Program-made: the position numbers and the translations under genes | Shown: positions 490 through 34,477 of the stretch, one piece after another | Numbering within the stretch: the stretch's first letter is position 1 | Layout: every line of letters begins with the position of its first letter | Notes under the pieces: generated by a model | The model's input: the letters and a program-made list of their open reading frames with translations, nothing else | Told to the model about the DNA's origin: nothing | Databases searched by the model: none | From: a virus | Taxonomy: Duplodnaviria > Caudoviricetes | DNA length: 40,021 nt | IMG/VR virus record: IMGVR_UViG_3300032212_000055 | Coordinates: 1-40,021 of that record | Direction: 5' to 3' (one strand)

Positions 490-1566
490 ATGCAGACAGA
501 ATATGGGGTCAATGCACCTGAAGCGGTTAAGCTTTGGTCACGAAAACTCATGCACGAAGCGCTCAAGCAAACCTGGGCGTCTAAATTCATGGGCAAAGAT
601 TCTTCGGCTGTATGCCAGATCAAAGACGATACCCAAAAAGGTGCGGGCGACCGAATCCGAACTACACTACGCATGCAGTTATCTGGTGCGGGTGTTCAGG
701 GTGATGACACTCTGGAAGGTAAAGAAGAAAAACTCACCACGCATACCGATGACCTGCTGATTAATCAGCTGCGTCATGCTGTGCGTTCTAAAGGTAAGAT
801 GACCGAGCAGCGTATCCCCTTCTCAATTCGAGAAGAAGCGCGTATGGGTCTTCAGGACTGGTGGGCAGATCGAATCGATAGCTGGTTCATGAATCAGTTA
901 GCTGGTAACTCAGCGCAGGAAGATACTCGTTACACGGGTAATAACGCTGCACTAGCGCCAGATTCCAGTCATCACATCTTTGCTAACAGCCATGCCTCAG
1001 AGGCAACCATGACCGCAACCGCGTCAGCGCAGTTCAGTCTGGGCCTGATCGATGCATGCCGACTTAAAGCTGAAACCCTTAAGGTGCCTATCCGTAAGAT
1101 GACGGGTGCCGGTGGTGCTGATTATGTGATGTTTGTTACCCCTGAGCAGGAGTATGACATGCGTCGTAATGCTAGCTCGATGGAGTGGGCAGACATTCAA
1201 AAAGCAGCTATCCAGGGCGGTCAAATCTCAGATAACCCAATCTTTAAGGGTGCTCTGGGTATGTATAACGGCGTACTGATGCACTCGTCTTACCGCTTAC
1301 CAGTCACTGATTCGACTGGTGGCTCTAAGATTGGTCGTTCAGTGTTCTGTGGTGCGCAGGCGGCTGTCATGGGCTTTGGCCGTGGTGATGGTCCGAACCG
1401 TATGGACTGGACAGAAGAGCTGTTCGATTATAAGAACAGTCTGGGTGTCGAAGCTGGTTGTATCGCAGGTCTTAAAAAGACTCGTTACAATAGCGAAGAC
1501 TTTGCAACAATGGCCGTTAGTGCTGCGCATTCCTCGAATGCTGCATCATTCACTGGCCGAACTTAA
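490..1566 (+). CDS. Major capsid protein, N4-gp56/DUF4043-like (HK97 fold)
   Basis: 358 aa; N-terminal T.YGVN.P.AVKLWS.KL, GD.TLEG.EE.L, INQLRHAV, NPIFKGALGMYNGV, W.EE.FDY.N motifs; follows scaffold. Confidence 0.9.
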   Translation: MQTEYGVNAPEAVKLWSRKLMHEALKQTWASKFMGKDSSAVCQIKDDTQKGAGDRIRTTLRMQLSGAGVQGDDTLEGKEEKLTTHTDDLLINQLRHAVRSKGKMTEQRIPFSIREEARMGLQDWWADRIDSWFMNQLAGNSAQEDTRYTGNNAALAPDSSHHIFANSHASEATMTATASAQFSLGLIDACRLKAETLKVPIRKMTGAGGADYVMFVTPEQEYDMRRNASSMEWADIQKAAIQGGQISDNPIFKGALGMYNGVLMHSSYRLPVTDSTGGSKIGRSVFCGAQAAVMGFGRGDGPNRMDWTEELFDYKNSLGVEAGCIAGLKKTRYNSEDFATMAVSAAHSSNAASFTGRT

Positions 1567-1580
1567 GGAGGGACTGAGTC

Positions 1581-2027
1581 ATGGCACATTTTGAAACTCA
1601 AGAAGCTACGTCAGGCCCTGCTGTTGCTGTACATGCAGGTCTTAACTCAGTGGTGGTTCAATACACCCTGGATGAGACGGCATCAGGCAGTACATCTATC
1701 GCTATCTGTGCATTACCAGCAGGCGCTGAGGTTACACGAGCTATGGTTCGTGCTAATCATGCAGCACTTAACGCTGGCGCTGCACCGGGCGCAGTTCGTT
1801 TATATCCCACTATCGGTGGTAACAGTGTCGGTGATCTCATCAGCACAGCGACCATCAGCTATCAGATTCAATCTGGTGCAGCGGGCAATAACGAGTCTGG
1901 TTTAGGTGTACGCTTAACCGGTTCCGCTAATCTAATCCTGAACCTTGAGGATTTGACCGGCACCGGCACAGCAAGCACGGTCTTTACCGTCATCGTTGAT
2001 TACTTGGCTGAGAAGTCGGGCGATTAA
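1581..2027 (+). CDS. Putative capsid decoration/cement protein
   Basis: 148 aa, rich in small residues and predicted beta; strong RBS AAGGAGG; directly after MCP and before a terminator. Confidence 0.6.
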   Translation: MAHFETQEATSGPAVAVHAGLNSVVVQYTLDETASGSTSIAICALPAGAEVTRAMVRANHAALNAGAAPGAVRLYPTIGGNSVGDLISTATISYQIQSGAAGNNESGLGVRLTGSANLILNLEDLTGTGTASTVFTVIVDYLAEKSGD

Positions 2028-2031
2028 AGAT

Positions 2032-2090
2032 AGGTAGCGCCCATCCTCGCTACCTGGGGTCGTTAGCTTAGGCTATCGGCCCTTTTTCGT
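2032..2090 (+). terminator. Tandem hairpins / intrinsic terminator after the head genes
   Basis: AGGTAGCG..CGCTACCT stem, then GGGGTCG-TTAGC-TTAG-GCTA-TCGGCCC followed by a T-run. Confidence 0.7.
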
Positions 2091-2144
2091 TTCTTAAGAT
2101 TTACCCTCACGGCGTATCATTCCCTAAACACAGAGGGAACCATA

Positions 2145-3569
2145 ATGCCGCTACTAGCCGACCTATTCGCCGCTACTCAACAGAAACACTTACAAGCATC
2201 AGAAACTAACGATATCGTCTTATTGCGCGAGTGCTACGAGGAATACAATGCCTTTCTCAACCAGGCACCTGATGAACCTGCCTTTATCTTTGCGATTGCG
2301 ACACTCAATATGCAGTTTGGTTACAACGCGCAGGCCATTGCACAATTTAAACGCTGTATTGATCTGGACCCCAATCAAGCTAATTTCTGGAATAACCTGG
2401 GCAGTGCTTATAAGAACGAGCACATGGACGATGAGGCTGAGAAGTGCTGGCTAAAGGCTAACGAGCTACACCCATCAACGGAATACCTGAATAACCTGTC
2501 TGTCTTGCACATTAACCGGGGGCACCCTGAGACCGGTATCGAGTTTGCTGAGAAAGCCATCGAGATGGACCCGAAAAATATTAAGGCCAACTGGAATTAT
2601 TCGCTGTTACTGCTTGAGCAACAGGATTATAAAAACGGCTTTGTACAGTATGAAGCTGGCTTATTGACAAAAGACCGGATGAATAAGCTGTACGACGCTA
2701 AAAACGGCACGGTACCGTACTACGAGGGGCAGGACCTGAGCGGTAAGACTATCGTGGTCTTTGGTGAGCAGGGTATCGGTGATGAAGTGCTCTATGCGAC
2801 TGCCATACCTGATCTGATTGCTACCGGCGCCAATATAATCTATGACTGCCATGACCGGCTTGAGTCAGTGATGAAGCGCTCATTCCCTGAGATTGATATC
2901 AGGCCCAATCGTAAGGACTACAACAGCCCTGAGTGGGCTAAAGATATGCACATTGATTACCGACTCGCTATCGGCTCACTGTTTCGCTTCTTTGGTGTGA
3001 GAAAACGCCCGCCTTACTTGGAGCCAGACCCTGAGCTGGTTGAGAAGTACCGGACGAAAATGGAGAACACAGGCCCAGCCCCGTATGTGGGTATTGGTTA
3101 TGCCGGTGGCCATAAGAAAACCCACGGTCATGAGCGCAGTTTTAAGCTCTCGGACTTAACCCCGGTGATTGATGGTGAGGCGACACTGATCTCACTGCAG
3201 TACACCCGTGAAGCCACAGAGAAGCTGAAGAATCACTTTATCCAGACAGGCCGAAAGATACATCACTGGCCTATGGTGATTTACTCGCACCTGGACGATG
3301 CCGCCACAGACAAGGCAGACGGCTATAACTACGAGAACACCATCGCCCTGATAGCAGCTCTTGATTATTGCGTGTTGCCTAATACCTCGGCGGTGCATGT
3401 TTGTGGTGCTGTAGGGACTACCTGCTACACATTAACCCCGGATGCTAAGGCATGGCGCTACTGTTCCGATGATAACCACATGAACTGGTATCAGGACCAC
3501 GTCACGCAGATTTATCAGGATGGTGACTGGGATAAGGCGATTAAGACACTTGCGGAGGCACTTAAATGA
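2145..3569 (+). CDS. TPR-repeat protein with C-terminal GT-B glycosyltransferase domain (GT9/heptosyltransferase-like)
   Basis: N-terminal TPRs (FWNNLGSAY, YLNNLSVL, ANWNYSLLL); C-terminal EQGIGDEVLYA, ISLQY and ALIAALD...NTSAVHVCGAVG motifs of TPR-GT9-like proteins. Confidence 0.8.
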   Translation: MPLLADLFAATQQKHLQASETNDIVLLRECYEEYNAFLNQAPDEPAFIFAIATLNMQFGYNAQAIAQFKRCIDLDPNQANFWNNLGSAYKNEHMDDEAEKCWLKANELHPSTEYLNNLSVLHINRGHPETGIEFAEKAIEMDPKNIKANWNYSLLLLEQQDYKNGFVQYEAGLLTKDRMNKLYDAKNGTVPYYEGQDLSGKTIVVFGEQGIGDEVLYATAIPDLIATGANIIYDCHDRLESVMKRSFPEIDIRPNRKDYNSPEWAKDMHIDYRLAIGSLFRFFGVRKRPPYLEPDPELVEKYRTKMENTGPAPYVGIGYAGGHKKTHGHERSFKLSDLTPVIDGEATLISLQYTREATEKLKNHFIQTGRKIHHWPMVIYSHLDDAATDKADGYNYENTIALIAALDYCVLPNTSAVHVCGAVGTTCYTLTPDAKAWRYCSDDNHMNWYQDHVTQIYQDGDWDKAIKTLAEALK

Positions 3570-3967
3570 TTGTTGCAACTAATATTGATGTTGTCGAAAT
3601 GCCTGACGATAAAGGCGAAATACATCGGATGATTCAACAGCAGAGCATGGGTCAAATGCCGCCTATATATGACAGCGCAGACAACCCGGTAGACCGTGAG
3701 GTGATGATAGAAACTATCCAGGGCAGACGCTTTAGAAACAGCAAAGGACTCGATATCGTATTGGGCATGAGCAATCAGGCTCAAGAGGCCCTGGGCATCT
3801 GGTTTGATACTGTCGAGAACCAAGCAAATATCATTGATGATTTACATAATTCCAATAACCGGCTAATGGCCGAATTGAACATGCTCAGAAAGACTTACGA
3901 TGCCTTTGAAAAAATGGGGTTTTGGTCTAGGTTACGATTCGCATTTACAAGGAAATATAAGCTATGA
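3566..3967 (+). CDS. Hypothetical protein
   Basis: 133 aa ORF with 4-nt overlaps to both neighbours. Confidence 0.7.
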   Translation: MIVATNIDVVEMPDDKGEIHRMIQQQSMGQMPPIYDSADNPVDREVMIETIQGRRFRNSKGLDIVLGMSNQAQEALGIWFDTVENQANIIDDLHNSNNRLMAELNMLRKTYDAFEKMGFWSRLRFAFTRKYKL

Positions 3968-4620
3968 AAACAGCCGTTATCGTAGGTCATGGCCCCAGCG
4001 CACTCGATGGCAAATTAGGTGAGTTTATCGACGCTCAGGACTATGTGATCAGGCTTAAACGCTGCCAGGAATCACTCAAATACCCTGCAGACTACGGCAC
4101 GCGCACTGACATTCTGGGTGGTTCATACGGCATAGCCGGTGCTATCAGACAGATACCAGCCGATCATTACTGGGTCTGGGTGGACTCACGACAGGATGAG
4201 CCCGACGTCAGCATTATTGAAACTCTGTTCTATGGTCACACCGTCGATGTTGATATCAACCTGTGCCGGTTCTGGGACTCTGCCTACATGCGCAGACGTG
4301 ACAAGGTCGACCAGTATGAGAAGCACGAACAGATGGAACAGTCTCAATATGCCGACGAATACGGTGAGAAACACCTGTCACAAGGGTTTAAAGCCATTGT
4401 CTATGCCGCTGAAAAGCTGGATGTGGATAAGATTTACCTAGTTGGCTTCGATAACATGATGACCGGTGAATTTACGTGGTCCATTACACGAGGCCCTGAC
4501 TTTGACCAGTACGCCACACACCGCTGGGATATTGAGCACGAGATGTTGCCACAGGTAGAGATTGTCTATGGCAAGAAAATCATTTTTAAAGTACCGGAGA
4601 TTACCCATGAGCAAGATTAA
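3964..4620 (+). CDS. GT29 (sialyltransferase-like) glycosyltransferase
   Basis: Sialylmotif-L-like AVIVGHGPS...LGEFIDAQDYVIRL...DYGTRT; S-like LSQGFKAI...IYLVGFD; VS-like H.W..E. Confidence 0.7.
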   Translation: MKTAVIVGHGPSALDGKLGEFIDAQDYVIRLKRCQESLKYPADYGTRTDILGGSYGIAGAIRQIPADHYWVWVDSRQDEPDVSIIETLFYGHTVDVDINLCRFWDSAYMRRRDKVDQYEKHEQMEQSQYADEYGEKHLSQGFKAIVYAAEKLDVDKIYLVGFDNMMTGEFTWSITRGPDFDQYATHRWDIEHEMLPQVEIVYGKKIIFKVPEITHEQD

Positions 4621-5911
4621 ATTTGTTACTTCATTCTCAGAAAAAGGTTTTAAGGAATACGGTGAGCGCATGCTTGAAACCTTCTGTGAGCATAACGACT
4701 TTCCGATAGTGGTCTACTACGAAGGCAAGAAAAAGCCGACGTTTAAGCGACCACAGATTGAATACCGGGATTTATTCAAGGTGCCGGGGGCTGCTCATAC
4801 CATGAATGTGCTGTCAGGCTTCCCCGTATTCTCTGGCCTGGTGGATGCAGTGCACACTGATCGACGCTTTTATCAATACGATGCCTTTAAGTTCAGCCGC
4901 AAGATGTTTGCTCAGGCTGACGCAGCTGGCGCCCACGACGGGCTTCTGTTCTGGCTGGATGCTGATGTTATCTGTCAGGCGCCATTCGATCCTGATCGTT
5001 TGGAGGCCATGCTGGAAGGTACTTATATGTGCTATTTAGGCAGGCCGAGCTGGCATTCCTGTGCTTCATTCGTGGGCTGGGACCTGACACATGAGGTTGA
5101 TAGCGTGTTCTGGACTAACTATTTCAACCTGATTGTCAGTGGTCGCTTCCTGGTACTGAAGGAATGGCACGACTCGTTCTGGCTGGATGAGATACGCAAA
5201 GGGGCGCATTTACCAGCACGTAATGTTGCAGGCGGTCTTGATCTTGAAGATGGCCCGGTTAATGTCTTTGACCGAGTCTGGCAGGGTGTAGCTAAACACC
5301 TGAAGGGCAACATCAAGAAAGGGCCACAGCGCTATAACCAGCTGATAGATATCGTGCGCGAGAAGCAGCCCAAACACATCATTGAGATTGGCACCTGGAA
5401 CGGTAACAGAGCCGTGGAGATGCTGAATGCTTCAGACGTGGCTGAGTCTTACATCGGCTTTGATCTGTTCACTCAGGCAACCCCTGAGACCGATGAGCAT
5501 GAAAAGAATGTTAAACCTCACTTCACCATCGAAGATGTCAAAGGCTACATTCACGACTGCGTGGGTGATGAGATTGTCGTCGAGCTGCACGAGGGCAACA
5601 CGAATGAAACGCTAGCCGACTTTGTTAATGGTGAAGTGGTGGCGCATGACCTGATTTATATCGACGGTGGCCACGCTGTTGAGACTATTGAGTCTGATCT
5701 GGTCAATGCTATGCGTGTTATCGCCCCAGACGGCACCATCGTTATGGATGACTACTACGAAGGCATGCCAGAGGAAGACCTGGATAAGTGGGGCTGTAAC
5801 CGGGTACTGGAAAAACTCGGTATTGAGTACGAGGTGTTACCTGTCGCTGACCCGGTCAATGGTGGCGGTGTCACTAAAATGGTCGTGATTAATGGAGCCA
5901 GCCTCACATGA
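4607..5911 (+). CDS. Fusion of a GT-A-like sugar transferase domain and a class I SAM methyltransferase (Methyltransf_24-like)
   Basis: ATG 4607 after GGAGA; N-half DAFKFSRKMFA...WLDADV (DxD) and EWHDSF; C-half IEIGTWNG, DLIYIDGGH and VMDDY. Confidence 0.75.
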   Translation: MSKIKFVTSFSEKGFKEYGERMLETFCEHNDFPIVVYYEGKKKPTFKRPQIEYRDLFKVPGAAHTMNVLSGFPVFSGLVDAVHTDRRFYQYDAFKFSRKMFAQADAAGAHDGLLFWLDADVICQAPFDPDRLEAMLEGTYMCYLGRPSWHSCASFVGWDLTHEVDSVFWTNYFNLIVSGRFLVLKEWHDSFWLDEIRKGAHLPARNVAGGLDLEDGPVNVFDRVWQGVAKHLKGNIKKGPQRYNQLIDIVREKQPKHIIEIGTWNGNRAVEMLNASDVAESYIGFDLFTQATPETDEHEKNVKPHFTIEDVKGYIHDCVGDEIVVELHEGNTNETLADFVNGEVVAHDLIYIDGGHAVETIESDLVNAMRVIAPDGTIVMDDYYEGMPEEDLDKWGCNRVLEKLGIEYEVLPVADPVNGGGVTKMVVINGASLT

Positions 5912-6522
5912 ATGCACGCATTATTGAGAAAAACGGATTCTTTATGCCAGAAACTCGGTTCGTTAATGAAGATTTGGGTAAATGGCTGGATCAGGCTAAG
6001 ACGCTTGATTTAGCGCTGCCCTATGTTCAAAACTTTGACCATGCGCTGGATGTCGGTGCCTATATCGGGTTGTGGACTATCCGCATGGGCCAGAGTTTCG
6101 ATAAGGTTACTGCCTTTGAGCCAGTGCCTGAGAACTACACGGCCATGCAGATGAACCTGGAAGACACAGGCATTAGCGTGCACCCGGTCAATAAGGCGGT
6201 AGGCAGTCACGTAGGCACCACAGACATGAGACTGAAAGGTGCTAATCATGCCACTATCACCCCAGAAAGAGAAAGCACGCACACCTTCAAAACCACGTCG
6301 ATTGATTCCTATGGCTTTGATGATATCGGTCTGATCAAGCTGGATATCGAAGGCATGGAACGACAGGCGCTGCAGGGTGCACAGAAAACCATTAAACGAT
6401 GCTCACCGGTTATCTGCATTGAAATCAAATTCCACGAGAAAGAAATCGATGCAGACTTGCGCGAGATGGGCTATTCACAGGTATTCAAAAACAAACTAGA
6501 TGCGATTTACGCGAGGACATAG
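5908..6522 (+). CDS. FkbM-family SAM methyltransferase
   Basis: LDVGAYIG, AFEP, IKLDIEGME..AL.GA motifs. Confidence 0.85.
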   Translation: MNARIIEKNGFFMPETRFVNEDLGKWLDQAKTLDLALPYVQNFDHALDVGAYIGLWTIRMGQSFDKVTAFEPVPENYTAMQMNLEDTGISVHPVNKAVGSHVGTTDMRLKGANHATITPERESTHTFKTTSIDSYGFDDIGLIKLDIEGMERQALQGAQKTIKRCSPVICIEIKFHEKEIDADLREMGYSQVFKNKLDAIYART

Positions 6523-6524
6523 CA

Positions 6525-6728
6525 ATGGATGAAACACTAGTTATCAGAACGGCATTAAATGGTTTTATAGTAGAAAACCTGGACCCTAATAATGATTATG
6601 CACAAACATCAAATAAGATGGTTTTCCAGTCTATGACTGAATTGCTGCACCATATCACTGAGTTTTACGGTTATAGAAACCCTAGCGAAATCATGAGTGA
6701 TAAGGAGGAAAAGCATGCAGCCTCTTAA
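6525..6728 (+). CDS. Hypothetical small protein (AT-rich)
   Basis: 67 aa ORF filling the gap between two transferase genes. Confidence 0.55.
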   Translation: MDETLVIRTALNGFIVENLDPNNDYAQTSNKMVFQSMTELLHHITEFYGYRNPSEIMSDKEEKHAAS

Positions 6729-7416
6729 AATCTTCATCGGGTTTGATCCCGTCGAGTCAGTGGCCTGGCATACGCTGGTGAGTTCGATCATGAGTCAGGC
6801 ATCAGTGCCGGTGTCGATTATCCCGTTAAACCTGCGTAATCTGCGCGATATCCACCACCGGGAGCGTGACCCTAAGCAGAGCAATGAGTTTACCTATATC
6901 CGCTTCCTGGTGCCGTATCTGTGCAATTATCAGGGTACAGCGCTATTCATGGACTGTGACATGCTGCTGAGGACGGACATTAAAGAACTGTTCAGCCTGG
7001 CAGACCAACAATATGCGGTCCAGGTGGTGAAGCACGACTATGAGCCTAAGCACTCGATCAAGTATCTTGGTAACGTGCAGCATTCATACCCGCGTAAGAA
7101 CTGGTCGAGCGTGGTGCTGTGGAACTGTGGACACCCTAAGAATAAGGAAATCACCCCCTATAAGGTCGATATGGCCGACCCGTCGTACCTTCACCGCTTT
7201 AACTGGCTGGATGATGACGAAATCGGAGAGTTGCCTATTGGCTGGAATTTTCTTGTTTCAGAATATGATGCAGACACCATAAATCATAATGATATCAAGA
7301 ACTTACATTTTACAACGGGCGGGCCTTACTTCAAGGAATACGAGACCGTAGACTTTGCTGCTGAATGGTTCGAAGCGTGTGAAAATATGCAAAGATGTGC
7401 TCAGCTAGACGACTAG
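6715..7416 (+). CDS. GT-A fold glycosyltransferase (GT8-like)
   Basis: RBS AAGGAGG; IFIGFD, SNEFTYIRFLVPYLC, FMDCDML (DxD), YPRKNWSS, WNFLV, LHFTTGGPYF. Confidence 0.85.
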   Translation: MQPLKIFIGFDPVESVAWHTLVSSIMSQASVPVSIIPLNLRNLRDIHHRERDPKQSNEFTYIRFLVPYLCNYQGTALFMDCDMLLRTDIKELFSLADQQYAVQVVKHDYEPKHSIKYLGNVQHSYPRKNWSSVVLWNCGHPKNKEITPYKVDMADPSYLHRFNWLDDDEIGELPIGWNFLVSEYDADTINHNDIKNLHFTTGGPYFKEYETVDFAAEWFEACENMQRCAQLDD

Positions 7417-7421
7417 GCCTC

Positions 7422-7465
7422 GGTCTGCTTTAATAGCGGGGAAACCCCCGCTAATGGAGCAGGCC
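7422..7465 (+). promoter_or_regulatory. ~19-bp hairpin that sequesters the RBS of the adaptor gene
   Basis: GGTCTGCTTT pairs with GGAGCAGGCC (with G-U); TAGCGGGG/CCCCGCTA inner stem; ATG immediately after at 7466. Confidence 0.6.
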
Positions 7466-8077
7466 ATGAAATTTGGCGACGCACGAAACCAGTTACTTGA
7501 TGAGTTATTTCGTACCGGGCAGCTCACTTCTCAAGCCCATACCTACATCAACAAAGCAATTGATTTCTATAAAAAGACCCCGACCTATTTTAACGAAGAA
7601 GTTTCAACAGCGCAGACCGTAGCGGGTGAGGAATATTTCGACTTACCTATTGATTATGGGTCGCTTCAATCTTTAACCCTGCAGGTCGATACTAACGAAT
7701 ACCGATTAATCCACCGCACTATGCAGGAAATGGACGACATGTATGTCTCAGCCGATAACTATACCGGCTATCCCCAGGACTTCTGTATATTCCGTAACCA
7801 AATCCGTTTAGGCCCTGTGCCTGACCAAGCTTATACCCTTAAGATGGCTTATCGCCGCTACCCAGAGACCGCCTCAGCCTCACATCAGGTGAATATCTGG
7901 CTAGATAACGAGCCCGACTTAATCATCGCCAGGGCAGCCCAGCAGATGTGCTTTAAGATCATTCAGGATGTCCCCAGGGGCCAAGTATTCAAGATGGAAG
8001 AAAAGGAATACCAGCAGGAAATGACCTCGACCACAGCCCGAAAAGTGATGCGAGGCTATACAAAGGGAAGAAATTAA
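7466..8077 (+). CDS. Head-to-tail adaptor / tail tubular protein A-like
   Basis: ~200 aa; Y.DLP.D, G.P..F, IRLGPVPD.AY.L...Y pattern typical of podovirus adaptors; position in the operon. Confidence 0.7.
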   Translation: MKFGDARNQLLDELFRTGQLTSQAHTYINKAIDFYKKTPTYFNEEVSTAQTVAGEEYFDLPIDYGSLQSLTLQVDTNEYRLIHRTMQEMDDMYVSADNYTGYPQDFCIFRNQIRLGPVPDQAYTLKMAYRRYPETASASHQVNIWLDNEPDLIIARAAQQMCFKIIQDVPRGQVFKMEEKEYQQEMTSTTARKVMRGYTKGRN

Positions 8078-9559
8078 ATGGCTGACTTCACTGTGGTTGT
8101 TTCTAATTGGGTTGCCGGTAGTGATGGCAAGGTCCGAGGCACAGACCCTGATGGAACATTCAGCGAAGACTCAGATTTTACGGGAGCCCCCGCTTATGCT
8201 ATTGGTTCAGGCACTGAGTACCATGTCGCAAAAACAGGGAATGATACAACAGGTGACGGGTCTTCCGGCTCGCCTTGGCTCACTATCGAAAAAGCATTGA
8301 CAGACGGTGCTACCACAGCCGGTGACACGATATCAGTTCATGCGGGTACTTATGTAGAAACCGGCTCTCATACGGTTCAAGATTCGTATAAGGCCAGTAT
8401 GTTATGCAGAGCCAGCGGCTCAAGTGGAGAACCGATCACATTACGTGCTAATCCGGGTGATGAAGGTTCTGTCATTATCGATGGTCAAAGCACTATCGCA
8501 GGAATACGTGTTGCACACGAGGATTACTGGCAGTTCTACGGCCTTCGTTTTGTTAATCATCTTCTAGGCGCTATTGTGATTTCAGATGCTTTTGACGATG
8601 TTATAACAACAGCAGGATTAGCTAAAAATATACGAGTAGAAAATTGCTATATCGGTAACACTGTCTCTGATAATCCCGGCTATAACGTTGCGTCATTAAG
8701 GTTCTTCCATATTCAGAACGTGACTATAAAAAATGTCAAAATTCGCAACACAGACCCTGATGTTCATGCATTCCAGAATTACGGTGCAAGCGATTACATT
8801 ATAGAAAACTGTGATTTTGAAACCACGAAGATTGCCGTATTTAATAAGGCGCATCTTATTGCAACGGTTTCGGGTGGCGCAGTGATTGGCGGCGAGGTCA
8901 AATATTCTAAACTTAAAGGCCAGCTGGCATGGATGGAACAACCTCAAGGCGCTGGCGGCAATGAAGCAGGTTTTGATTGGATTCACCATAATATTTTACA
9001 ATCAACCAGCACAAATAATGAAGAGGCGGTTATACGGTCTCTTATGCCTGGAGCTGCGCGGCAATCAACACGTAAACGCATAGAGCATAATACTTGCTGG
9101 GGTAATGGCTTTGGCGCGATGGTTTATATGGCATCCTTTAATGATGTCGAAATCTACGGCAACATAGCCGCTAATGTAAGATCAGTTCATTATCTTGGTG
9201 GGCAGCAAAATGGTTTTGATACCTTCTTAACCGAATGCGACTACACCGTAGCAGACTGGACAAATGCGAATTATGCAGAAATGGACAGACTGGATACTCT
9301 GGCAGAGGGGTACACCTTAGCAGAGTTTCAGGCTGGCACAATTGCATCAGAGGCCCCGACTTCATTTGCAGTAGACACCCCCGATGCCAATGGCGTATCA
9401 GCAGCGGCAGCCGATTTATTTGACACACCGGGAACAACTTTCACGAATAAGACAGGCTCTCCCGCTATCGGTATTATGCCGGGTGGTAATAACGCAGGAT
9501 GTTATGAAACAGGTAGCGAAGTTGTTGGCCTAACAGCAAGTTACACCGCAGGTGCATAA
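8078..9559 (+). CDS. Right-handed parallel beta-helix (pectate-lyase-like) protein; putative tailspike/depolymerase
   Basis: YHVAKTGND...G...SPWLTIEKA...AGDTISVHAGTY start motif; repeated I.VENC, I.NV.I, IIENC, IHHN, IEHNT stacks. Confidence 0.75.
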   Translation: MADFTVVVSNWVAGSDGKVRGTDPDGTFSEDSDFTGAPAYAIGSGTEYHVAKTGNDTTGDGSSGSPWLTIEKALTDGATTAGDTISVHAGTYVETGSHTVQDSYKASMLCRASGSSGEPITLRANPGDEGSVIIDGQSTIAGIRVAHEDYWQFYGLRFVNHLLGAIVISDAFDDVITTAGLAKNIRVENCYIGNTVSDNPGYNVASLRFFHIQNVTIKNVKIRNTDPDVHAFQNYGASDYIIENCDFETTKIAVFNKAHLIATVSGGAVIGGEVKYSKLKGQLAWMEQPQGAGGNEAGFDWIHHNILQSTSTNNEEAVIRSLMPGAARQSTRKRIEHNTCWGNGFGAMVYMASFNDVEIYGNIAANVRSVHYLGGQQNGFDTFLTECDYTVADWTNANYAEMDRLDTLAEGYTLAEFQAGTIASEAPTSFAVDTPDANGVSAAAADLFDTPGTTFTNKTGSPAIGIMPGGNNAGCYETGSEVVGLTASYTAGA

Positions 9560-11082
9560 TGGCATTTACAGATGATTTCAACCGAACTAATGAAGATCTA
9601 GAAGATTCTGCCGACTGGGATTTGGTCGACGGTGCAGCAGGCGCAGCCAGGGTTTTTGGTAACGTTGTAATCTGTGACACTGGACAATCAAGCGGCTCTT
9701 ATCGTTGTCCCGATCAAGCAAGCGCAAATCATTACGCGCAAGCTGCGATTAGAAATTCAGGAAATGCCTTCCCTGTTGTATGTAGGATGACAGACGGCAG
9801 TAATGGTTTCGGATTAAGACATGAAGGCACACACTGGCAGCTTTATAAACAAGACACGGGAAGTTTTACTCAACTAGGATCGAACTATACAGCAGCATTG
9901 GTGGCCGGTGATATTGGGCGTATAGAGTGCGATGGCAATGACATAACCGTCAAAATAAACGGTACTACACGAATAGGTCCAATCACAGATTCCTTTAATA
10001 ACACGGAAACGCGCCAAGGTGTTTGGCCTAGAAGTAACACGATATCTGACTGGTTTGACGACTTTGAGGCAGGGACATTAACAGTAGGTGACACAGCCGC
10101 CCCAGCCACTGGTCAAATCAATATTGTTGGTTATTCACCAGCAGCTGCCAGCGATACAGTCTTTCCGGTCATAGGCCAGATTGATGTGGTCGGCTACGCA
10201 TCAACGGCTGAAATAGCCGAGGCCACTATCGCCTCTGTACCATCGACAGTGGCGCGTGGCGAATCGGCGGTCACGATTACAGGCTCATATTTTGGTGCTG
10301 TTCAGGGTTCAGGTTCTGTCACTTTCGGCGGCGAATCCTGCACGATAGATAGCTGGTCTGATACCAGTATTGATGTCACGATTCCCAGCGGTATAAATTT
10401 ACTTTATGACGAAACACCGACATACACGTTTGTTGTCACAGCTGACGATGCCACCAGTGATACCAGCTCAGCGGTAGATTTCACCCCAGCCTCTGGTCGT
10501 AGCTATATCACGCTGTCGTCACCAGCTTACTCAAGCAATGCATATATGCTGTTTGGCTATGAGGGTACGCCAGCGCCTGTGACCGGTGATCAGCTTGAAT
10601 ATGACACCAATACAGTACCTAGCAGCATCGCAAACGAGCCAGAATTAACATCAGAGTGGGTGCTGGCCAGCATGCCGACAGTGCCGCAAACCACAGATTG
10701 TCAGATTATTCGAGCAGCGACCGGGGTCAGGTCCACCACCTGGACCATTACCTGGGCGGTTGAGCACACGGCAGAGCCCTCAGTCGGTAGCGCTGATGTC
10801 ATCGGTTACGCACCAACAGCCGAATTGGTTGTTGATGTGGACCCAGTAACTGGTCAGATCGACGCAGTGGGTTACGTGCCTCAAATCGAGTCAACTGTAC
10901 AGGTTACGCCTAGCGTAGGTATAATCGAGGTCACGGGGCTGTCTCTAAACGCAGGTATCGTGCATTATATTGATATTTTAGCGGGTGGCGCGGTCGACGT
11001 TACGGGTTATAGCGCGTTAAAAGTTGACACGCGGCGCTGGGTTCCGATCAATGAATCATCAAGTACATGGTCAGTTTATTAA
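9559..11082 (+). CDS. Virion structural protein: lectin-like N-domain, IPT/TIG-like domain and P..G.I...GY repeats
   Basis: VTITGSYFGAVQGSGSVTFGG...SWSDTSI.VTIP (IPT/TIG); six G.I.V.GY-type repeats. Confidence 0.6.
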   Translation: MAFTDDFNRTNEDLEDSADWDLVDGAAGAARVFGNVVICDTGQSSGSYRCPDQASANHYAQAAIRNSGNAFPVVCRMTDGSNGFGLRHEGTHWQLYKQDTGSFTQLGSNYTAALVAGDIGRIECDGNDITVKINGTTRIGPITDSFNNTETRQGVWPRSNTISDWFDDFEAGTLTVGDTAAPATGQINIVGYSPAAASDTVFPVIGQIDVVGYASTAEIAEATIASVPSTVARGESAVTITGSYFGAVQGSGSVTFGGESCTIDSWSDTSIDVTIPSGINLLYDETPTYTFVVTADDATSDTSSAVDFTPASGRSYITLSSPAYSSNAYMLFGYEGTPAPVTGDQLEYDTNTVPSSIANEPELTSEWVLASMPTVPQTTDCQIIRAATGVRSTTWTITWAVEHTAEPSVGSADVIGYAPTAELVVDVDPVTGQIDAVGYVPQIESTVQVTPSVGIIEVTGLSLNAGIVHYIDILAGGAVDVTGYSALKVDTRRWVPINESSSTWSVY

Positions 11083-11094
11083 GAGGACAACAAC

Positions 11095-11550
11095 ATGGCA
11101 GCCGGTAAATTTTTTATGTATAACACAGGGCTTTTAAACGTCCTGAAACGCAATATTAACCTTGTGTCGGGTACGCTGATTGCTTACCCGTTACATTCTG
11201 GTTATACCCCCTCGACAGCCTCGCACTCCACGGTGGCGCAGATAGCGGCCTTTCAGGCGACAGCCTCTGCTACCGTAGTCAATGCGGTGTCAGTGACGGC
11301 AACGATCACCGGGTCAGGTAACGCGGTCAAATTCGATTTGACGGATATCTCAGGCTTTTCCGCTGCGGGTGATACCTTCCAGGCGAAATACGTCGCAGTG
11401 GTGCATCGATCAGGCTCAGCCTCGCAGGCCGGTGATTTACTGGTCGGCTTCTGTGACCTGGATACAGCCGCCAGCACGGGCTTAGAAGGCACGCAGGTTA
11501 ATGTCACCTGGAATGCTTCGGGCGTTACTAAATATAACGTCAATCCTTAA
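11095..11550 (+). CDS. Putative virion protein
   Basis: 151 aa, beta-rich, RBS GAGGA, inside the tail operon. Confidence 0.65.
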   Translation: MAAGKFFMYNTGLLNVLKRNINLVSGTLIAYPLHSGYTPSTASHSTVAQIAAFQATASATVVNAVSVTATITGSGNAVKFDLTDISGFSAAGDTFQAKYVAVVHRSGSASQAGDLLVGFCDLDTAASTGLEGTQVNVTWNASGVTKYNVNP

Positions 11551-11561
11551 GGGGGTGTGTC

Positions 11562-12275
11562 ATGGCTCTTGAATCTGCAGACTTTATCAGTCAGCTGGTA
11601 CTCACGAACCCGGACGGGGGCGACCAATTCTCGACACTGGATAATCAGGATCGACTGATTAAAAAGGCGGTACAGCAAACCCTCCCGAACCTAAACAGTG
11701 AAGTTTCAGCCACGCCTCAACATCTAAACGCTACTATCAGTGCCTCTGCTCATTTAGCTGACTTATCCGCCACATTAACCACGCAAATCACTACTTTGTC
11801 AGCGAATTTACAGACAGAGATTGATGCCAACGATTCTAAATTTCATGGGGCAAGGGTTGTTTTGCAAGCCAATACAGCGATAGCAGATTCTTCGGCTTAT
11901 GTTATCCCCTTCGATTTTGAAGAATATGACACAGATTCAATACACGACAACGCCACAAACCCAGAAAGAGTCACTGTGCCGACTGGATATAATAAGATCA
12001 AGTTAGGTGCTTATGTGGCGGCCTCATCGATTACAGCATCGGGCCACCTACAGGTTACTCTGTTTAAAAATGGCTCAAGTCTTTTTCCGGGCTCTGGTAC
12101 TGTTTTCGGGTCTAGATATACTCCCTTGTCGATAGCAGAACTTAATAGACAATTATCTTGCACGGCTGGTGATTATTTTCATCTTCGAGTCACGCAAACA
12201 TCAGGGTCTAGTAAAACATTGATCGGAGGCACGGCTGGCGGTTCCTCATTCTGGTGTCAGATTATGGAAAGTTAG
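11562..12275 (+). CDS. Short tail fibre: conserved N-terminal anchor, coiled coil and C1q-like head
   Basis: MALESA.FI..L..TNP...D.....D...RLIK..VQ.T.PN anchor; IPFD.EEYDTD..HD....P.R.TVP and L....GDY..L.V.Q C1q-like pattern. Confidence 0.65.
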   Translation: MALESADFISQLVLTNPDGGDQFSTLDNQDRLIKKAVQQTLPNLNSEVSATPQHLNATISASAHLADLSATLTTQITTLSANLQTEIDANDSKFHGARVVLQANTAIADSSAYVIPFDFEEYDTDSIHDNATNPERVTVPTGYNKIKLGAYVAASSITASGHLQVTLFKNGSSLFPGSGTVFGSRYTPLSIAELNRQLSCTAGDYFHLRVTQTSGSSKTLIGGTAGGSSFWCQIMES

Positions 12276-12277
12276 GC

Positions 12278-13849
12278 GTGCCAATTGCTCACTTTGACAA
12301 CCTGTCAGACATTGGTGTCGTCAAGGATACATCAGAGTTTGACATCCCTGAAAATGCCTTCACTGATGCGCGTAATGTCCGGTTTACCGATGGCGCAGTC
12401 AGAAAGGCTAAAGGCCGTGAGCAGGTTTTCGGTACGCTTCTAGGCACCCCATACTTTGCGATGCCGGTCACGAAATCAGGTAGCAAGTTCTGGTTTTATG
12501 CTGACCAGGAATATATCTACGGCACCGATAACACCAATCACTACAAAATGTCGTCTGCTACGGCAGCGATGAGCCTGGACATTAACTGGACCGGGGGTGT
12601 TTTGGGCAACTCCATTGTCATAATGAATGAAAGCACAACAGACCCCTATGTGTGGTCTGGTAGTGCATTAACCGACGCTTTCGGCTCTCTGGCTAACTGG
12701 CCTGCCTCGATGACCTGTCGCAGTCTGCGCGTACATAAGCAACGACTGATCGCTATGGATATCGACGAAGGCTCAGGCCGCGACGATACCCTGCTCAGAT
12801 GGTCTCATCCAGCCGTGCCTGGTGGGGTCCCTGCCAGCTGGGATTATGCCGATAAAACCAAAAGCTCTGGCCGGGTTACGATTGATGGGCCGGGCGCTAT
12901 CATCGATGGGCTTCCTTTACGTGATCAATTTATCGTCTACAAAGAGCAATCGGTCCACTCGATGCAGTTAATCGGCGGTAATGCTACTTACCAAATTCGT
13001 AAGATGTTTGATGAGTTCGGTCTGTTATCGCGTCGCTGTGTTCAAGAGTTTTACGGTAAGCATTTTTGCGTGACCCAGGGCGATATCCTAATACATGACG
13101 GGCATGACCATCAGCCGGTCTTTGATCGCCGCATGCTTGATTGGCTGTTCAGTAACATTGATAGCGGCAACTACGAGCGCTCATTCGTCTCGATTAATTA
13201 TAACGAGCGTGAAGTGTGGATATGTTTCCCAGAGTCCGGGCAAACACTGCCTAATCTGGCGCTGGTCTGGAACTGGCAGGATAACACCACGCAGATTCAA
13301 GAGCTGCCAGTGGGTACAGCCCACATCGGCTGGGGCATTGTTGACCCGAATATCGACACCACGATTGATGGTCGTACCGGTACGATTGATAGTTATACCG
13401 ACGCGATAGACTCGTCTTACTATACCCAGGTCAAGCGCTCTAATCTCATTTGTAACACCACGCTAGATCGATTACAGCGCCTGTACTATACCGACCAGTT
13501 TGACGGGGCGAACATGACGGCTTACGTGCAGCGCTCAGCCCTGCCATTAGGTCGTGAAACACAGACCGGTAAAAAGTTCGATCCGCACAGAATCAAATTT
13601 ATCAGTGAGATATGGCCCGTTATCGAAGGCACTACCGGCGGCATTGTTAATGTTTACGTGGGTGCTCGTGATACCCCGGACGCCACCGTGTCCTGGTCAG
13701 GTCCTTATCAACACACGATAGGCAGTACAACCAAGCTGCCCATGCGTGTCTCAGGCCGTTTAATAGACATCAAATTCGAATCGACCACCGATATTGACTG
13801 GGAGCTGGTTAAGTATTCTGTGGTCTATGAATTGGGCGGGGAGCGGTGA
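12278..13849 (+). CDS. Tail nozzle / packaged-DNA stabilisation protein (tail tubular B / P22 gp10-like)
   Basis: ~520 aa; GVVKD.....P.NAFTD.RNVRF, LRWSH...P.SWD, EVWICFP...ALVWN motifs; GTG start at 12278 after the upstream stop. Confidence 0.75.
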   Translation: MPIAHFDNLSDIGVVKDTSEFDIPENAFTDARNVRFTDGAVRKAKGREQVFGTLLGTPYFAMPVTKSGSKFWFYADQEYIYGTDNTNHYKMSSATAAMSLDINWTGGVLGNSIVIMNESTTDPYVWSGSALTDAFGSLANWPASMTCRSLRVHKQRLIAMDIDEGSGRDDTLLRWSHPAVPGGVPASWDYADKTKSSGRVTIDGPGAIIDGLPLRDQFIVYKEQSVHSMQLIGGNATYQIRKMFDEFGLLSRRCVQEFYGKHFCVTQGDILIHDGHDHQPVFDRRMLDWLFSNIDSGNYERSFVSINYNEREVWICFPESGQTLPNLALVWNWQDNTTQIQELPVGTAHIGWGIVDPNIDTTIDGRTGTIDSYTDAIDSSYYTQVKRSNLICNTTLDRLQRLYYTDQFDGANMTAYVQRSALPLGRETQTGKKFDPHRIKFISEIWPVIEGTTGGIVNVYVGARDTPDATVSWSGPYQHTIGSTTKLPMRVSGRLIDIKFESTTDIDWELVKYSVVYELGGER

Positions 13850-14529
13850 CTGACTTACATGAGCCTTATGTCGCCTCAGAACCCCCTGTTTCGAATGATA
13901 TTCAGGTCTTAAGAGACTGGCTATCGTATGAATTCAAACGCATTGAAAGCGGGTTTAACGGTGTCGATTTAGAGCAAGAAAGCCGATACCAAACCATAGA
14001 GCCTAATCTATTACCCCGTCTGTTTTTTGAGGGTATTATCGATAGGACGGCAGACCCGGTTTATGAGGTGGCTTATTCAGCCGGTGGCAGCATCATCACC
14101 GATGTGCACTGGTTTGATGGTACAACCGCCGCACAATCGCTGTATTTTAACGTCAGGCTGCCCAGTTCCTTCAAAGAGGGCTCAATCATTCTGCCCCGTG
14201 TACGCTGGACACATAATGCCTCAGCAACCGCCTCAGAGGTGGTGGTGTGGGGCATCAATTACCAGTTATGGCACCCCGGTTCTGCGATCCCTGCGCACAC
14301 TAACGCATTGATTACAGCGACCTGTAATGTCACACCCGATTTACATTTGACGCATGCATTCCCAGAAATTACCGCTTCTGCTGCAGTTATTGGTACAATA
14401 TTAGCGGGTCATATTTATAGAGACCCTACGGCATCCACCGATACCTGGGCGAAAAAAGCTGGATTACTGGGCTTTGAGTTTAACATCGAGATCGATTCAG
14501 TCGGTTCGAACACAGATACGGTGAAGTAG
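13846..14529 (+). CDS. Putative tail/virion protein
   Basis: 227 aa; L..EF.RI N-terminal motif seen after nozzle genes; beta-rich C-domain. Confidence 0.6.
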   Translation: MTDLHEPYVASEPPVSNDIQVLRDWLSYEFKRIESGFNGVDLEQESRYQTIEPNLLPRLFFEGIIDRTADPVYEVAYSAGGSIITDVHWFDGTTAAQSLYFNVRLPSSFKEGSIILPRVRWTHNASATASEVVVWGINYQLWHPGSAIPAHTNALITATCNVTPDLHLTHAFPEITASAAVIGTILAGHIYRDPTASTDTWAKKAGLLGFEFNIEIDSVGSNTDTVK

Positions 14530-34067: not shown

Positions 34068-34477
34068 AAACAATATTACTCTCAGGCGGCTTCGACCCTC
34101 TCCATATCGGCCATGTACGCATGATTAAGGCTGCGTCACGTCGCTGTGAGGTGATTATCGCCTTAAATTCCGATGACTGGCTGATGCGCAAGAAAGGCTA
34201 TGTATTCATGCCTTTTGATGAGCGTAAGGAAATACTCGAAAGCCTGGAAGCGGTATCAGGGGTCACTCACGTCGATGACAGTGACGAAACCGTCTGTGAA
34301 GCTATTAACAGAATACGCCCTGATTGTTTTGGTAACGGTGGTGACCGGCTACCCGGTAACACGCCAGAACACGAACTTTGTGAAAAACTGAGCATTCACC
34401 TCGTCTATGGTTTAGGGGGTGAGAAAATCCAGTCAAGTAGCGAACTTGTTGATAATGCAGAGGTATATCATGGATAA
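34064..34477 (+). CDS. HIGH-motif nucleotidyltransferase (TagD / RfaE-domain-II-like)
   Basis: SGGFDPLHIGH, LNSDDWL.RKKG, F.NGGDR...NTPE, K.QSSS. Confidence 0.9.
   Translation: MKTILLSGGFDPLHIGHVRMIKAASRRCEVIIALNSDDWLMRKKGYVFMPFDERKEILESLEAVSGVTHVDDSDETVCEAINRIRPDCFGNGGDRLPGNTPEHELCEKLSIHLVYGLGGEKIQSSSELVDNAEVYHG

What the first reader, a model, noticed from the sequence alone, without database searches (positions are those of the whole stretch)
988..14460. Recurrent (S/T)A(S/T) patches across unrelated outer virion proteins: a possible glycosylation acceptor motif
Seen: MCP SHASEATMTATASA (988-1029); decoration protein ETASGSTS, ISTATIS, GTGTAST; adaptor ETASASH; 11095 protein STASHST, QATASAT, SVTAT, SGSAS; fibre VSAT, ATISASA, LSAT, ITASG; nozzle SSATAA; 13846 protein NASATAS, ITAT, ITASAA, TAST. 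By eye such patches are rare in terminase, portal, the enzymes and the early proteins. Known: bacterial O-glycosylation often targets Ser/Thr in Ala-rich low-complexity segments. Inference: several non-homologous surface proteins have converged on an acceptor motif read by the TPR-GT, i.e. a writer-plus-code system within one genome.
Basis: partly seen in the sequence, partly recalled or inferred. Interest (0 to 1): 0.85.

Follow-up and report, generated by a model that had tools for sequence, protein, structure and literature searches.

The report
Likely sugar-acceptor ladder on phage virions
In this uncultured phage and its relatives, outer coat proteins carry short alternating serine/threonine-alanine patches about five times more often than chance when a sugar-transferase-like gene sits behind the capsid genes, and barely above chance when it is absent, so the patches likely mark where the phage attaches its own sugar coat, though no sugar has been measured.

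Summary
The window is a whole 40-kb GP4/Pam1-like podophage. A TPR + GT9-like glycosyltransferase (TPR-GT) cassette lies between its cement and adaptor genes. [ST]A[ST] occurs 22 times against 5.4 expected in the seven named proteins, but that set was chosen by eye. I therefore tested relatives with and without the cassette.

In 94 held-out phages, observed/expected counts with the cassette were capsid 46/31, cement 86/31 and adaptor 33/12. Without it they were 43/49, 40/36 and 28/30. Portal, scaffold and ejection proteins show no excess. The signal is a longer ladder, [ST]x[ST]A[ST] or [ST]A[ST]x[ST] (5-fold against 1.3-fold); lone tripeptides sit at chance. One capsid loop holds it in 55 of 86 against 2 of 74 phages. 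It survives phylogenetic regression, but well-supported independent pairs are too few.

Against: three large appendage-like proteins lack the excess, the nozzle barely discriminates, and two other TPR-GT phage lineages show none.

Best reading (0.67): O-glycan acceptor patches for the phage's own enzyme. No chemistry is shown. The scan noted this cassette on other DNA before; my look-ups found no note of this motif.

The parts
490..1566 (+). Major capsid protein, HK97 fold, GP4/Pan3/A1002/Pam1 family
   Evidence: PF13252 E 6e-73; PDB 8h89 E 4e-52, 9vye, 26de, 7eel; Foldseek TM 0.73 to 8h89
1012..1026 (+). Capsid ladder site TATAS (residues 175-179), in the indel-rich loop between G-loop and first A-domain helix
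   Evidence: extended motif at residues 170-179 in 55 of 86 cassette-bearing vs 2 of 74 cassette-less relatives; coil in the AF2 model
1581..2027 (+). Cement (decoration) protein with three ladder sites at 1677-1685, 1845-1853 and 1968-1976
   Evidence: profile of 37 homologues hits Pam1 cement 7eel_H E 7e-7 and GP4 8h89_J E 3e-5; sites
2145..3569 (+). TPR-GT: N-terminal TPR helices plus GT9-like GT-B domain with invariant Q-G-x-G-D (Asp213); the proposed initiating enzyme
   Evidence: Pfam TPR; AF2 pLDDT 95; VIA-align Z 17.8 to GT9 3tov, 16.6 WaaF, 16.0 WaaC, 15.5 TibC; domain profile hits WaaF E 0.0024; QGxGD invariant in 62 of 62
3566..3967 (+). Unknown ORF inside the cassette (133 aa)
   Evidence: no Pfam, PHROG or NCBIfam hit
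3964..4620 (+). GT29 (sialyltransferase-like) protein, candidate elongating enzyme
   Evidence: PF00777 E 8e-7, above cut-off
4610..5911 (+). Two-domain protein: N-terminal domain with a DxD-like WLDAD word (GT-A-like by inference only) plus C-terminal SAM methyltransferase
   Evidence: PF13578 E 3e-14 for residues 258-382; N-terminal part had no convincing hit
5908..6522 (+). FkbM-family methyltransferase
   Evidence: PF05050 E 1e-18; TIGR01444
6715..7416 (+). GT8-like glycosyltransferase
   Evidence: PF01501 E 1e-7; present in 55 of 60 TPR-GT loci with the adaptor in view and 0 of 74 loci without TPR-GT
7454..8077 (+). Tail adaptor with ladder site TASAS at 7868-7882
   Evidence: PF24175 E 9e-18; extended motif at residues 140-149 in 23 of 60 vs 3 of 74 relatives
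11095..11550 (+). Small structural protein, five sites (11215-11223, 11260-11274, 11296-11304, 11416-11424), all extended
   Evidence: phrog_644; nearest named Atlas cluster is GP4 fibre I gp80, score 0.87, a lead only; cassette-bearing homologues 8 extended vs 1.6 expected, n=6
11562..12275 (+). Tail fibre-like protein, four sites (11706-11714, 11739-11747, 11766-11774, 12033-12041)
   Evidence: PHROG tail protein hits; family test weak: extended 9/3.9 with vs 8/5.5 without cassette
12254..13849 (+). Tail nozzle, one non-extended site at 12554-12562
   Evidence: PDB 9nwi E 2e-81, VP1 nozzle 8zkm E 2e-44; not significant in the window
13846..14529 (+). Fibre/appendage-like protein, five sites (14221-14235, 14314-14322, 14371-14379, 14428-14436)
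   Evidence: 5 vs 0.6, 4 of 5000 shuffles; Atlas look-alikes mostly viral and unnamed; no homologue among my loci
34064..35164 (+). Two possible sugar-nucleotide supply genes outside the cassette: RfaE-domain-II-like nucleotidyltransferase (34064-34477) and GMP-PMI-like cupin (34751-35164)
   Evidence: PF01467 and PF01050; TIGR02199 E 6e-15 and TIGR01479 E 3e-18, both below cut-off; the link to the cassette is inferred

Best explanation
The outer coat proteins of this phage carry short alternating Ser/Thr ladders around an alanine that likely serve as attachment patches for sugars added by the phage's own TPR-glycosyltransferase. Shown: the ladders ([ST]x[ST]A[ST] or [ST]A[ST]x[ST]) are in excess in capsid, cement and adaptor proteins of relatives that carry the TPR-GT gene, at several separate positions. 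They are not in excess in internal proteins, and only slightly so in cassette-less relatives. The enzyme has a GT9/TibC-like fold with an invariant aspartate in its G-x-G-D word. Inferred: (1) During late infection the TPR domain holds newly made virion subunits in the cytoplasm, as FlmG's TPR holds flagellin. (2) An extended ladder puts every second hydroxyl on one face, and Asp213 acts as base to attach a sugar from a nucleotide donor to Ser or Thr. (3) The GT8-like and GT29-like enzymes extend the glycan and the methyltransferases cap it. (4) With hundreds of capsid and cement copies the particle would get a dense glycan coat. The donor sugar, the exact acceptor residue and the benefit are unknown; shielding from proteases, grazers or host surface traps is my guess.
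For: First set, window excluded: capsid 81/45.4, cement 121/44.8, adaptor 46/22.7 in 52 cassette-bearing vs 7/12.0, 15/12.1, 10/9.2 in 14 cassette-less phages. In an unbiased screen of all trimers with S and T merged, SAS alone is enriched in all four outer families (worst p 1.4e-4; next best 0.07). Held-out set of 34 vs 60 phages: capsid 46/31.0 vs 43/49.0, cement 86/30.5 vs 40/36.0, adaptor 33/11.7 vs 28/30.1, nozzle 33/15.4 vs 69/51.3; in cassette-bearing phages portal 8/9.5, scaffold 9/10.6, ejection 4/4.0. Extended ladder in that set 132/25.7 vs 60/47.2; isolated tripeptides 66/59.4 vs 120/117.2. The contrast holds in three GC bins and three collections. PGLS on a capsid tree built without the loop gives p 4e-6 (lambda 0.53) and 7e-4 (lambda near 1) for outer proteins and 0.79 for internal ones; 9 of 10 clade pairs on the best tree go the same way. 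Separate sites: cement residues 0-9 in 26 of 86 vs 0 of 65, 30-39 in 40 vs 0, 90-99 in 18 vs 0. The excess persists in the 5 loci without GT8 (31/5.7) and the 8 loci without the common accessory family 8 (37/7.3), which points to the TPR-GT as the partner. 69 of 373 motif serines use AGY codons, so it is not a DNA repeat. Fold evidence. Precedents: PMC4358343 (TibC heptosylates Ser), PMC7591256 (FlmG TPR binds acceptor), PMC6973325 (alternating Ser acceptors).
Against: No sugar, activity or virion has been examined. Cassette presence changes only 11 times on the tree, and just 4 independent pairs lie on well-supported branches, too few for significance. For the extended motif the pair test is 8 of 10 (p 0.11), and the control [ST]G[ST] also goes 8 of 10. 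Single-family PGLS is weak for capsid (p 0.04 and 0.16), adaptor (0.18) and nozzle. Nozzles of cassette-less phages are also 1.3-1.5-fold enriched. Two other lineages with TPR-GT homologues show no excess: SU10-like capsid 15/13.7, nozzle 12/14.8; distant GP4-like capsid 2/3.3, cement 1/3.4. Exceptions exist: the cassette-bearing group L130/L333/L196 has 7/8.7, and cassette-less L149, L150 and L251 carry motifs. Three large appendage-like proteins of the window lack the excess. Cassette absence was scored from the locus; whole records were searched for only 24 (0 hits, 3 of them at least 90% complete). The extended form of the motif was found on pooled data, so its held-out figure is not a blind test.
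Confidence: 0.67

Rival explanations
1. Shared ancestry plus structure: alternating S/T is a normal feature of exposed beta-strands and turns, and it happens to be richer in the clades that also kept the cassette.
For: General [ST]x[ST]x[ST] without Ala is enriched in both groups, 1.93 vs 1.36. Solved cement proteins of Pam1 and GP4 have S/T/A-rich strands. Only 4 well-supported independent pairs. Other TPR-GT lineages lack the excess.
Against: Homologous positions in cassette-less relatives at similar capsid identity lack the ladder (2 of 74 vs 55 of 86). Single cassette-less tips inside cassette-bearing clades mostly lack the loop motif (L208, L236, L247, L251), and cassette-bearing L045 inside a cassette-less clade has it. 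PGLS stays significant at lambda near 1.
Confidence: 0.13
2. The ladder is a docking or recognition signal for the TPR protein (or another cassette product), but the chemistry is not O-glycosylation at these residues; sugars might go on elsewhere or the modification might be of another kind.
For: TPR domains bind peptides. The cassette holds methyltransferases and an unknown ORF. The motif keeps several hydroxyls, more than one acceptor would need.
Against: The GT domain keeps an invariant G-x-G-D and other cleft residues in 62 of 62 homologues. The constrained residues are exactly the hydroxyl-bearing ones, with S and T interchangeable (SAS 97, TAS 84, TAT 67, SAT 62).
Confidence: 0.1
3. The cassette acts on host LPS or on phage DNA, and the motif reflects a host or habitat shared by cassette-bearing phages (for instance a host enzyme that modifies virions).
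For: GT9, GT8 and FkbM enzymes are typical LPS enzymes (established knowledge; best structural matches are WaaF and WaaC). Phage GTs are known to modify DNA and host serotype (passages in PMC12619734). Cassette-less loci include many prophages of soil Alphaproteobacteria.
Against: The cassette sits in the late structural operon directly after the cement gene in the near clade and in two distant lineages. It carries a TPR module that LPS heptosyltransferases lack. The contrast holds within viral, genome and metagenome collections and within GC bins. Internal proteins show no shift.
Confidence: 0.1

Closest known systems
Virion O-glycosylation of mycobacteriophages Che8, Corndog and Myrna (Freeman et al. 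2023; not held, seen only through passages in PMC12619734 and PMC12363180)
   Same: Tailed phage with its own glycosyltransferase genes; capsid and tail proteins as targets
   Different: There, glycans are reported at the C-termini of capsid and tail-tube subunits in Actinobacteria phages. Here the candidate sites are internal, recur in several unrelated proteins, the enzyme is a TPR-GT9 and the relatives infect Proteobacteria. Glycans there are measured; here they are not.
TibC/AAH autotransporter heptosyltransferases, BAHT family (PMC4358343, passages read)
   Same: Cytoplasmic protein O-glycosyltransferase with a WaaC-like GT-B domain and a catalytic Asp; Ser acceptors in S/T/A/G-rich beta structure; VIA-align Z 15.5 over residues 181-474
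   Different: TibC has an N-terminal beta-barrel, a four-Cys iron finger and a dodecamer, and modifies Ser only; this protein has N-terminal TPRs, 9% identity, and its motif accepts S or T equally
FlmG flagellin glycosyltransferase of Caulobacter (PMC7591256 and bioRxiv 10.1101/2023.12.03.569772, passages read)
   Same: N-terminal TPR that binds the acceptor protein plus C-terminal GT-B; cytoplasmic O-linkage to Ser/Thr of a surface polymer subunit
   Different: FlmG serves one family of paralogous flagellins with no known sequence consensus and uses pseudaminic or legionaminic acid; here unrelated proteins share a linear ladder. Sequence kinship to FlmG was not tested.
Serine-rich repeat adhesins glycosylated by GtfA/GtfB (PMC6973325, passages read)
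   Same: Acceptor pattern of alternating Ser, most often separated by Ala, Val or Thr; a priming enzyme followed by elongating enzymes and a non-sugar decoration
   Different: SRR domains are long repeat tracts in one exported adhesin; here 5-7-residue patches are set into folded virion proteins, with a different enzyme and no accessory Sec system
OGT/SPINDLY (GT41) TPR glycosyltransferases
   Same: TPR plus GT-B architecture; top Foldseek hits (E 1e-11)
   Different: 11-14% identity and TM about 0.33, apparently driven by the TPR part; the catalytic domain aligns best to GT9 structures

Membership tests
GT9-like GT-B glycosyltransferases | Two Rossmann-like lobes matching WaaC/WaaF | tested here: met
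   Z 17.8 (3tov, rmsd 3.0, 253 aligned), 16.6 (WaaF), 16.0 (WaaC) on a pLDDT-95 model
GT9-like GT-B glycosyltransferases | Pfam PF01075 at curated cut-off | tested here: inconclusive
   No hit for the window protein; 8 of 62 homologous domains hit weakly, best E 1.6e-4; profile vs WaaF E 0.0024
GT9-like GT-B glycosyltransferases | Conserved Asp in the first-strand G-D word (catalytic base) | tested here: met
   QGxGD invariant in 62 of 62 and aligned to the WaaF G-D word; its role as base is inferred from recalled WaaC chemistry and TibC Asp110 (PMC4358343)
GT9-like GT-B glycosyltransferases | ADP-heptose donor and transfer activity | not testable with these tools
   Needs an enzyme assay
BAHT (TibC/AAH) | N-terminal beta-barrel domain | tested here: not met
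   Residues 1-175 are TPR helices
BAHT (TibC/AAH) | Four-cysteine iron finger | tested here: not met
   Only one nearly invariant Cys (C235) in 40 homologues; none among the invariant columns of 62 GT domains
FlmG-class flagellin glycosyltransferases | N-terminal TPR plus C-terminal GT-B | tested here: met
FlmG-class flagellin glycosyltransferases | Sequence homology to FlmG | not tested
   No named FlmG sequence came up among the 120 listed of 275 profile hits; no direct comparison was possible
FlmG-class flagellin glycosyltransferases | Pse/Leg donor and TPR-dependent acceptor binding | not testable with these tools
   Needs biochemistry
OGT/SPINDLY (GT41) | GT41 catalytic domain | tested here: inconclusive
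   Foldseek hits at 11-14% identity, TM about 0.33; no GT41 Pfam hit; GT9 chains rank higher
Serine-rich repeat protein glycosylation | Alternating Ser/Thr separated by Ala, Val, Thr or Leu | tested here: met
   In [ST]x[ST]y[ST], Ala is 4.4-5.6-fold and Leu (x) 5.2-fold enriched in cassette-bearing phages
Serine-rich repeat protein glycosylation | Long SRR repeat domains and an accessory Sec locus with GtfA/GtfB | tested here: not met
   Patches are 5-7 residues; no such genes among the 30 window proteins scanned
Mycobacteriophage-type virion glycosylation | Phage-encoded glycosyltransferases | tested here: met
   TPR-GT, GT29-like and GT8-like genes
Mycobacteriophage-type virion glycosylation | Glycans at the C-termini of capsid and tail-tube subunits | tested here: inconclusive
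   Candidate sites here are internal; real sites are unknown, and the feature is known to me only second-hand
Mycobacteriophage-type virion glycosylation | Glycan detected on virions, lost on GT deletion | not testable with these tools
   No cultured close relative: best INPHARED hit to the TPR-GT is a metagenomic record at 32% identity, 5 records in all

The most novel reading that the evidence does not exclude
A widespread clade of podophages of Gram-negative bacteria runs a self-contained writer-plus-code system. One TPR-GT9 enzyme reads a portable linear Ser/Thr-Ala ladder that evolution has written independently into unrelated capsid, cement, adaptor and fibre proteins, and erased after loss of the enzyme. 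This would give a glycan-coated virion and a short transferable cytoplasmic O-glycosylation tag.
Probability: 0.5. Interest if true: 0.85.

Novelty: new variant of a known kind. Interest (0 to 1): 0.72.

Why it matters
Virion glycosylation by a phage's own enzymes has been measured, as far as my searches showed, only in mycobacteriophages. Flagellin-type cytoplasmic O-glycosyltransferases were reported in 2020 to have no known sequence consensus. Here comparative genomics names an enzyme, its likely targets and residue-level candidate sites, which makes the idea testable with two genes in E. coli. If true, many environmental podophages would be sugar-coated, which bears on their stability, adsorption and grazing. 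The large bacterial TPR-GT9 family would gain a first defined protein acceptor. The ladder could also serve as a short tag for cytoplasmic glyco-engineering.

Tried and rejected
- A single-sequence scan for TPR-GT loci found nothing; the alignment scan worked.
- The complex prediction of TPR-GT with the cement protein gave no answer, score 0.00 in two runs. It is not used as evidence either way.
- The idea that the tripeptide alone is the signal was rejected: isolated [ST]A[ST] is at chance in both groups.
- A virion-wide motif was rejected: it is absent from three appendage-like proteins of the window and from internal proteins.
- A motif common to all TPR-GT phages was rejected: SU10-like and distant GP4-like lineages lack it.
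- A DNA repeat or GC effect was rejected: codons are mixed, [ST]P[ST] is at 0.87 of expectation, and the contrast holds across GC bins.
- GT8 or the common accessory family 8 as the sole partner is disfavoured on small numbers.
- treekit's strict pair test was uninformative, with 4 pairs. L173, whose GT gene is cut by the contig end, was drawn as cassette-less in that one tree and left out.
- Dropped before counting: loci without a full capsid gene, loci of unknown cassette status (8 of 79 representatives; 29 of 202 new loci), near-duplicates above 85% capsid identity, and in the near-clade tables 4 distant cassette-less capsids.
- The N-terminal domain of 4610-5911 could not be assigned.
- No paper read gives the orientation of the capsid loop.
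- Freeman et al. 2023 is not held in the library. No supplements were read; those of the capsid-structure papers could bear on loop exposure.

Full report
What the window is. The translation shows the last ORF ending in the same peptide with which the first begins, so the window is a circularly complete genome of about 40 kb (a virus record of 40021 bases). Families: P22-like portal, terminase, capsid protein PF13252, SU10-type adaptor, nozzle and ejection proteins. The capsid protein is homologous to the solved capsids of GP4, Pan3, A1002 and Pam1, and the next gene to the cement proteins of Pam1 and GP4. Those cement proteins sit as trimers on the outer capsid surface (passages of PMC9698820 and PMC13730344). 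Between cement and adaptor genes lies a cassette: TPR-GT, an unknown ORF, a GT29-like gene, a two-domain methyltransferase, an FkbM methyltransferase and a GT8-like gene.

The observation. All quoted peptides are present. The seven named proteins hold 22 [ST]A[ST] against 5.4 in shuffles (0 of 2000), and 6.5 with local shuffling. Among 1331 class-level trimers it is the top one in that set, but not in all structural proteins together, where it is 25 against 14.2. Ten other structural proteins hold 3 against 8.8, and the whole proteome 29 against 18.1. Because the seven were chosen by eye, the window alone proves little. I therefore used relatives as a natural experiment.

First comparison. Scans with the capsid protein and the TPR-GT gave 130 loci with a full capsid gene and 79 representatives below 85% identity. 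Of these, 53 carry the TPR-GT, 18 lack it and 8 are unknown. In the near clade, window excluded, observed/expected counts were capsid 81/45.4, cement 121/44.8 and adaptor 46/22.7 with the cassette (52, 52 and 39 proteins). Without it they were 7/12.0, 15/12.1 and 10/9.2 (14 each). S+T and Ala content were alike in both groups. None of 24 cassette-less records had a TPR-GT elsewhere, though only 3 are at least 90% complete. An unbiased screen of every trimer, S and T merged, found only SAS enriched in all four outer families (worst-family p 1.4e-4; next best 0.07).

Held-out comparison. Three further scans gave 202 new capsid loci, 173 classifiable, and 94 representatives below 85% identity to everything earlier (34 with, 60 without). 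With vs without: capsid 46/31.0 vs 43/49.0 (p 0.006), cement 86/30.5 vs 40/36.0 (p 9e-6), adaptor 33/11.7 vs 28/30.1 (p 9e-6), nozzle 33/15.4 vs 69/51.3 (p 0.03). Internal proteins showed no excess: portal 8/9.5 vs 16/27.1, scaffold 9/10.6 vs 12/22.8, ejection protein 4/4.0 vs 23/35.6. These p values treat genomes as independent. The capsid loop at residues 165-183 holds the tripeptide in 22 of 34 vs 4 of 60.

The motif is longer than reported. Sites flanked by another S/T two residues away carry all the excess. In the second set the extended form is 132/25.7 vs 60/47.2 and the isolated form 66/59.4 vs 120/117.2. The first set gives 209/43.5 vs 24/14.3, and the window 17 vs 1.7. This refinement came from pooled data, so it is consistent in both halves but was not blind. 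Best spacers are Ala and, before the central S/T, Leu; Lys and Arg are under-represented in both groups. The ladder occurs at separate positions: capsid 170-179 (55 of 86 vs 2 of 74), cement 0-9, 30-39, 90-99 and 130-139 (26, 40, 18, 21 of 86 vs 0, 0, 0, 4 of 65), and adaptor 50-59 and 140-149 (15 and 23 of 60 vs 3 and 3 of 74). Most cassette-less cement proteins belong to a sister family, so that comparison is less exact. The contrast holds in each collection and GC bin, and 69 of 373 motif serines use AGY codons.

Phylogeny. On a capsid tree built without the loop, cassette state changes 11 times; only 4 pairs lie on well-supported branches and cannot reach significance. My own PGLS gives p 4e-6 at the fitted lambda and 7e-4 at lambda near 1 for outer proteins, and 0.79 for internal ones. 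Nine of 10 clade pairs on the best tree agree (p 0.02), but the control [ST]G[ST] gives 8 of 10, as does the extended motif. So descent alone is an unlikely but not excluded cause. Exceptions are the group L130/L333/L196 (cassette, 7/8.7) and L149, L150, L251 (no cassette seen, motifs present).

Limits of the link. TPR-GT homologues also sit behind the capsid genes of SU10-like and distant GP4-like phages, in their own enzyme clades. There the motif is not enriched. Either those enzymes read something else, or the link is clade-specific. The fibre family barely discriminates (9/3.9 vs 8/5.5), and 13846 has no homologue among my loci.

The enzyme. The model (pLDDT 95) has TPR helices to about residue 175 and a GT-B domain whose best matches are GT9 enzymes and the protein heptosyltransferase TibC (Z 15.5-17.8). 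A profile of 62 domains hits WaaF (E 0.0024), and Q-G-x-G-D is invariant. Foldseek's SPY/OGT hits are at 11-14% identity. The motif excess persists in the 5 loci lacking GT8 and the 8 lacking the common accessory family 8, which leaves the TPR-GT as the constant partner.

Where the sites lie. The capsid site aligns just after the region called G-loop in A1002 (147-180), at the start of the A-domain, in a coil of the model that is rich in indels. That the HK97 G-loop lies on the capsid exterior is my recollection; in my calls it is backed only by the title of a cited reference and by G-loop contacts with an external decoration protein in P74-26. Exposure is therefore inferred, not measured.

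Mechanism and rivals. I commit to O-glycan acceptor patches read by the TPR-GT, extended and capped by the other cassette enzymes (0.67). The statistics and fold are shown; binding, catalysis, donor and function are inferred. The rivals are ancestry with beta-strand periodicity (0.13), a docking signal without sugar at these residues (0.10), and an LPS- or DNA-directed cassette with a host-linked motif (0.10).

What is known. Papers were seen as search listings and keyword passages only, none in full. Virion glycosylation by phage enzymes is reported for mycobacteriophages (second-hand). TibC shows that this fold can O-glycosylate protein serines. FlmG shows TPR-guided acceptor choice with no known consensus. 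SRR adhesins show alternating-serine acceptors. Five searches (listings only, 25 of 120 seen) showed no paper on a TPR-GT9 cassette or such a motif in podophages; subscription journals are mostly not covered. Earlier notes of this scan describe what appears to be the same cassette on other DNA and other motif-plus-transferase systems in other phages. Look-ups by place and by words found no note on this motif. These notes are leads, not support.

Verdict. It is a new variant of phage virion glycosylation, with residue-level predictions and a two-gene test. Interest 0.72.

Noticed in passing
L275 (Vineibacter terrae CC-CFT640), L294 (Reyranella sp. CPCC 100927), L282 (Vineibacter MAG): Chromosomal capsid and TPR-GT genes in all three genomes, with GT8 and adaptor genes in view in the two cultured strains. 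In those two the portal lies about 11 kb upstream, with other, apparently host-type genes in between. It looks like a degraded or domesticated prophage and offers cultured sources of the enzyme; the cement-like protein carries ladders.
   Followed up: partly
window 34064-34477 and 34751-35164: RfaE-domain-II-like nucleotidyltransferase and GMP-PMI-like cupin just before the terminase genes, possibly supplying sugar donors; few homologues were in view in my loci.
   Followed up: partly
L108 2432-6275: A distant GP4-like phage carries a run of genes near its TPR-GT that look, from their N-terminal sequences only, like a nucleotide-heptose pathway.
   Followed up: no
L051, L054, L055, L078, L089 and others; L059, L087, L107, L108, L112: The same TPR-GT family sits behind the capsid genes of two other podophage lineages, each with its own enzyme clade and no [ST]A[ST] excess; they may use a different acceptor motif.
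   Followed up: partly
window 17159-20014: Large polyvalent protein with LPD23 and ART-PolyVal domains among the ejection proteins.
   Followed up: no
window 32982-34067: PAPS-reductase-family gene in the early region.
   Followed up: no
window 8078-9559 and 9559-11082: Two large S/T/G-rich appendage-like proteins right after the adaptor (one with a TIG domain) that have few or no homologues among my loci and lack the ladder excess; possibly recently acquired.
   Followed up: partly
L003 13120-13458, L051 6003-6512 and related loci (family 22, 10 members): A small ORF that looks by eye like an HNH endonuclease is inserted in or near the cassette in several relatives.
   Followed up: no
window 1-127 and the last ~127 bases: Terminal direct repeat that splits the scaffold gene across the ends of the record.
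   Followed up: yes
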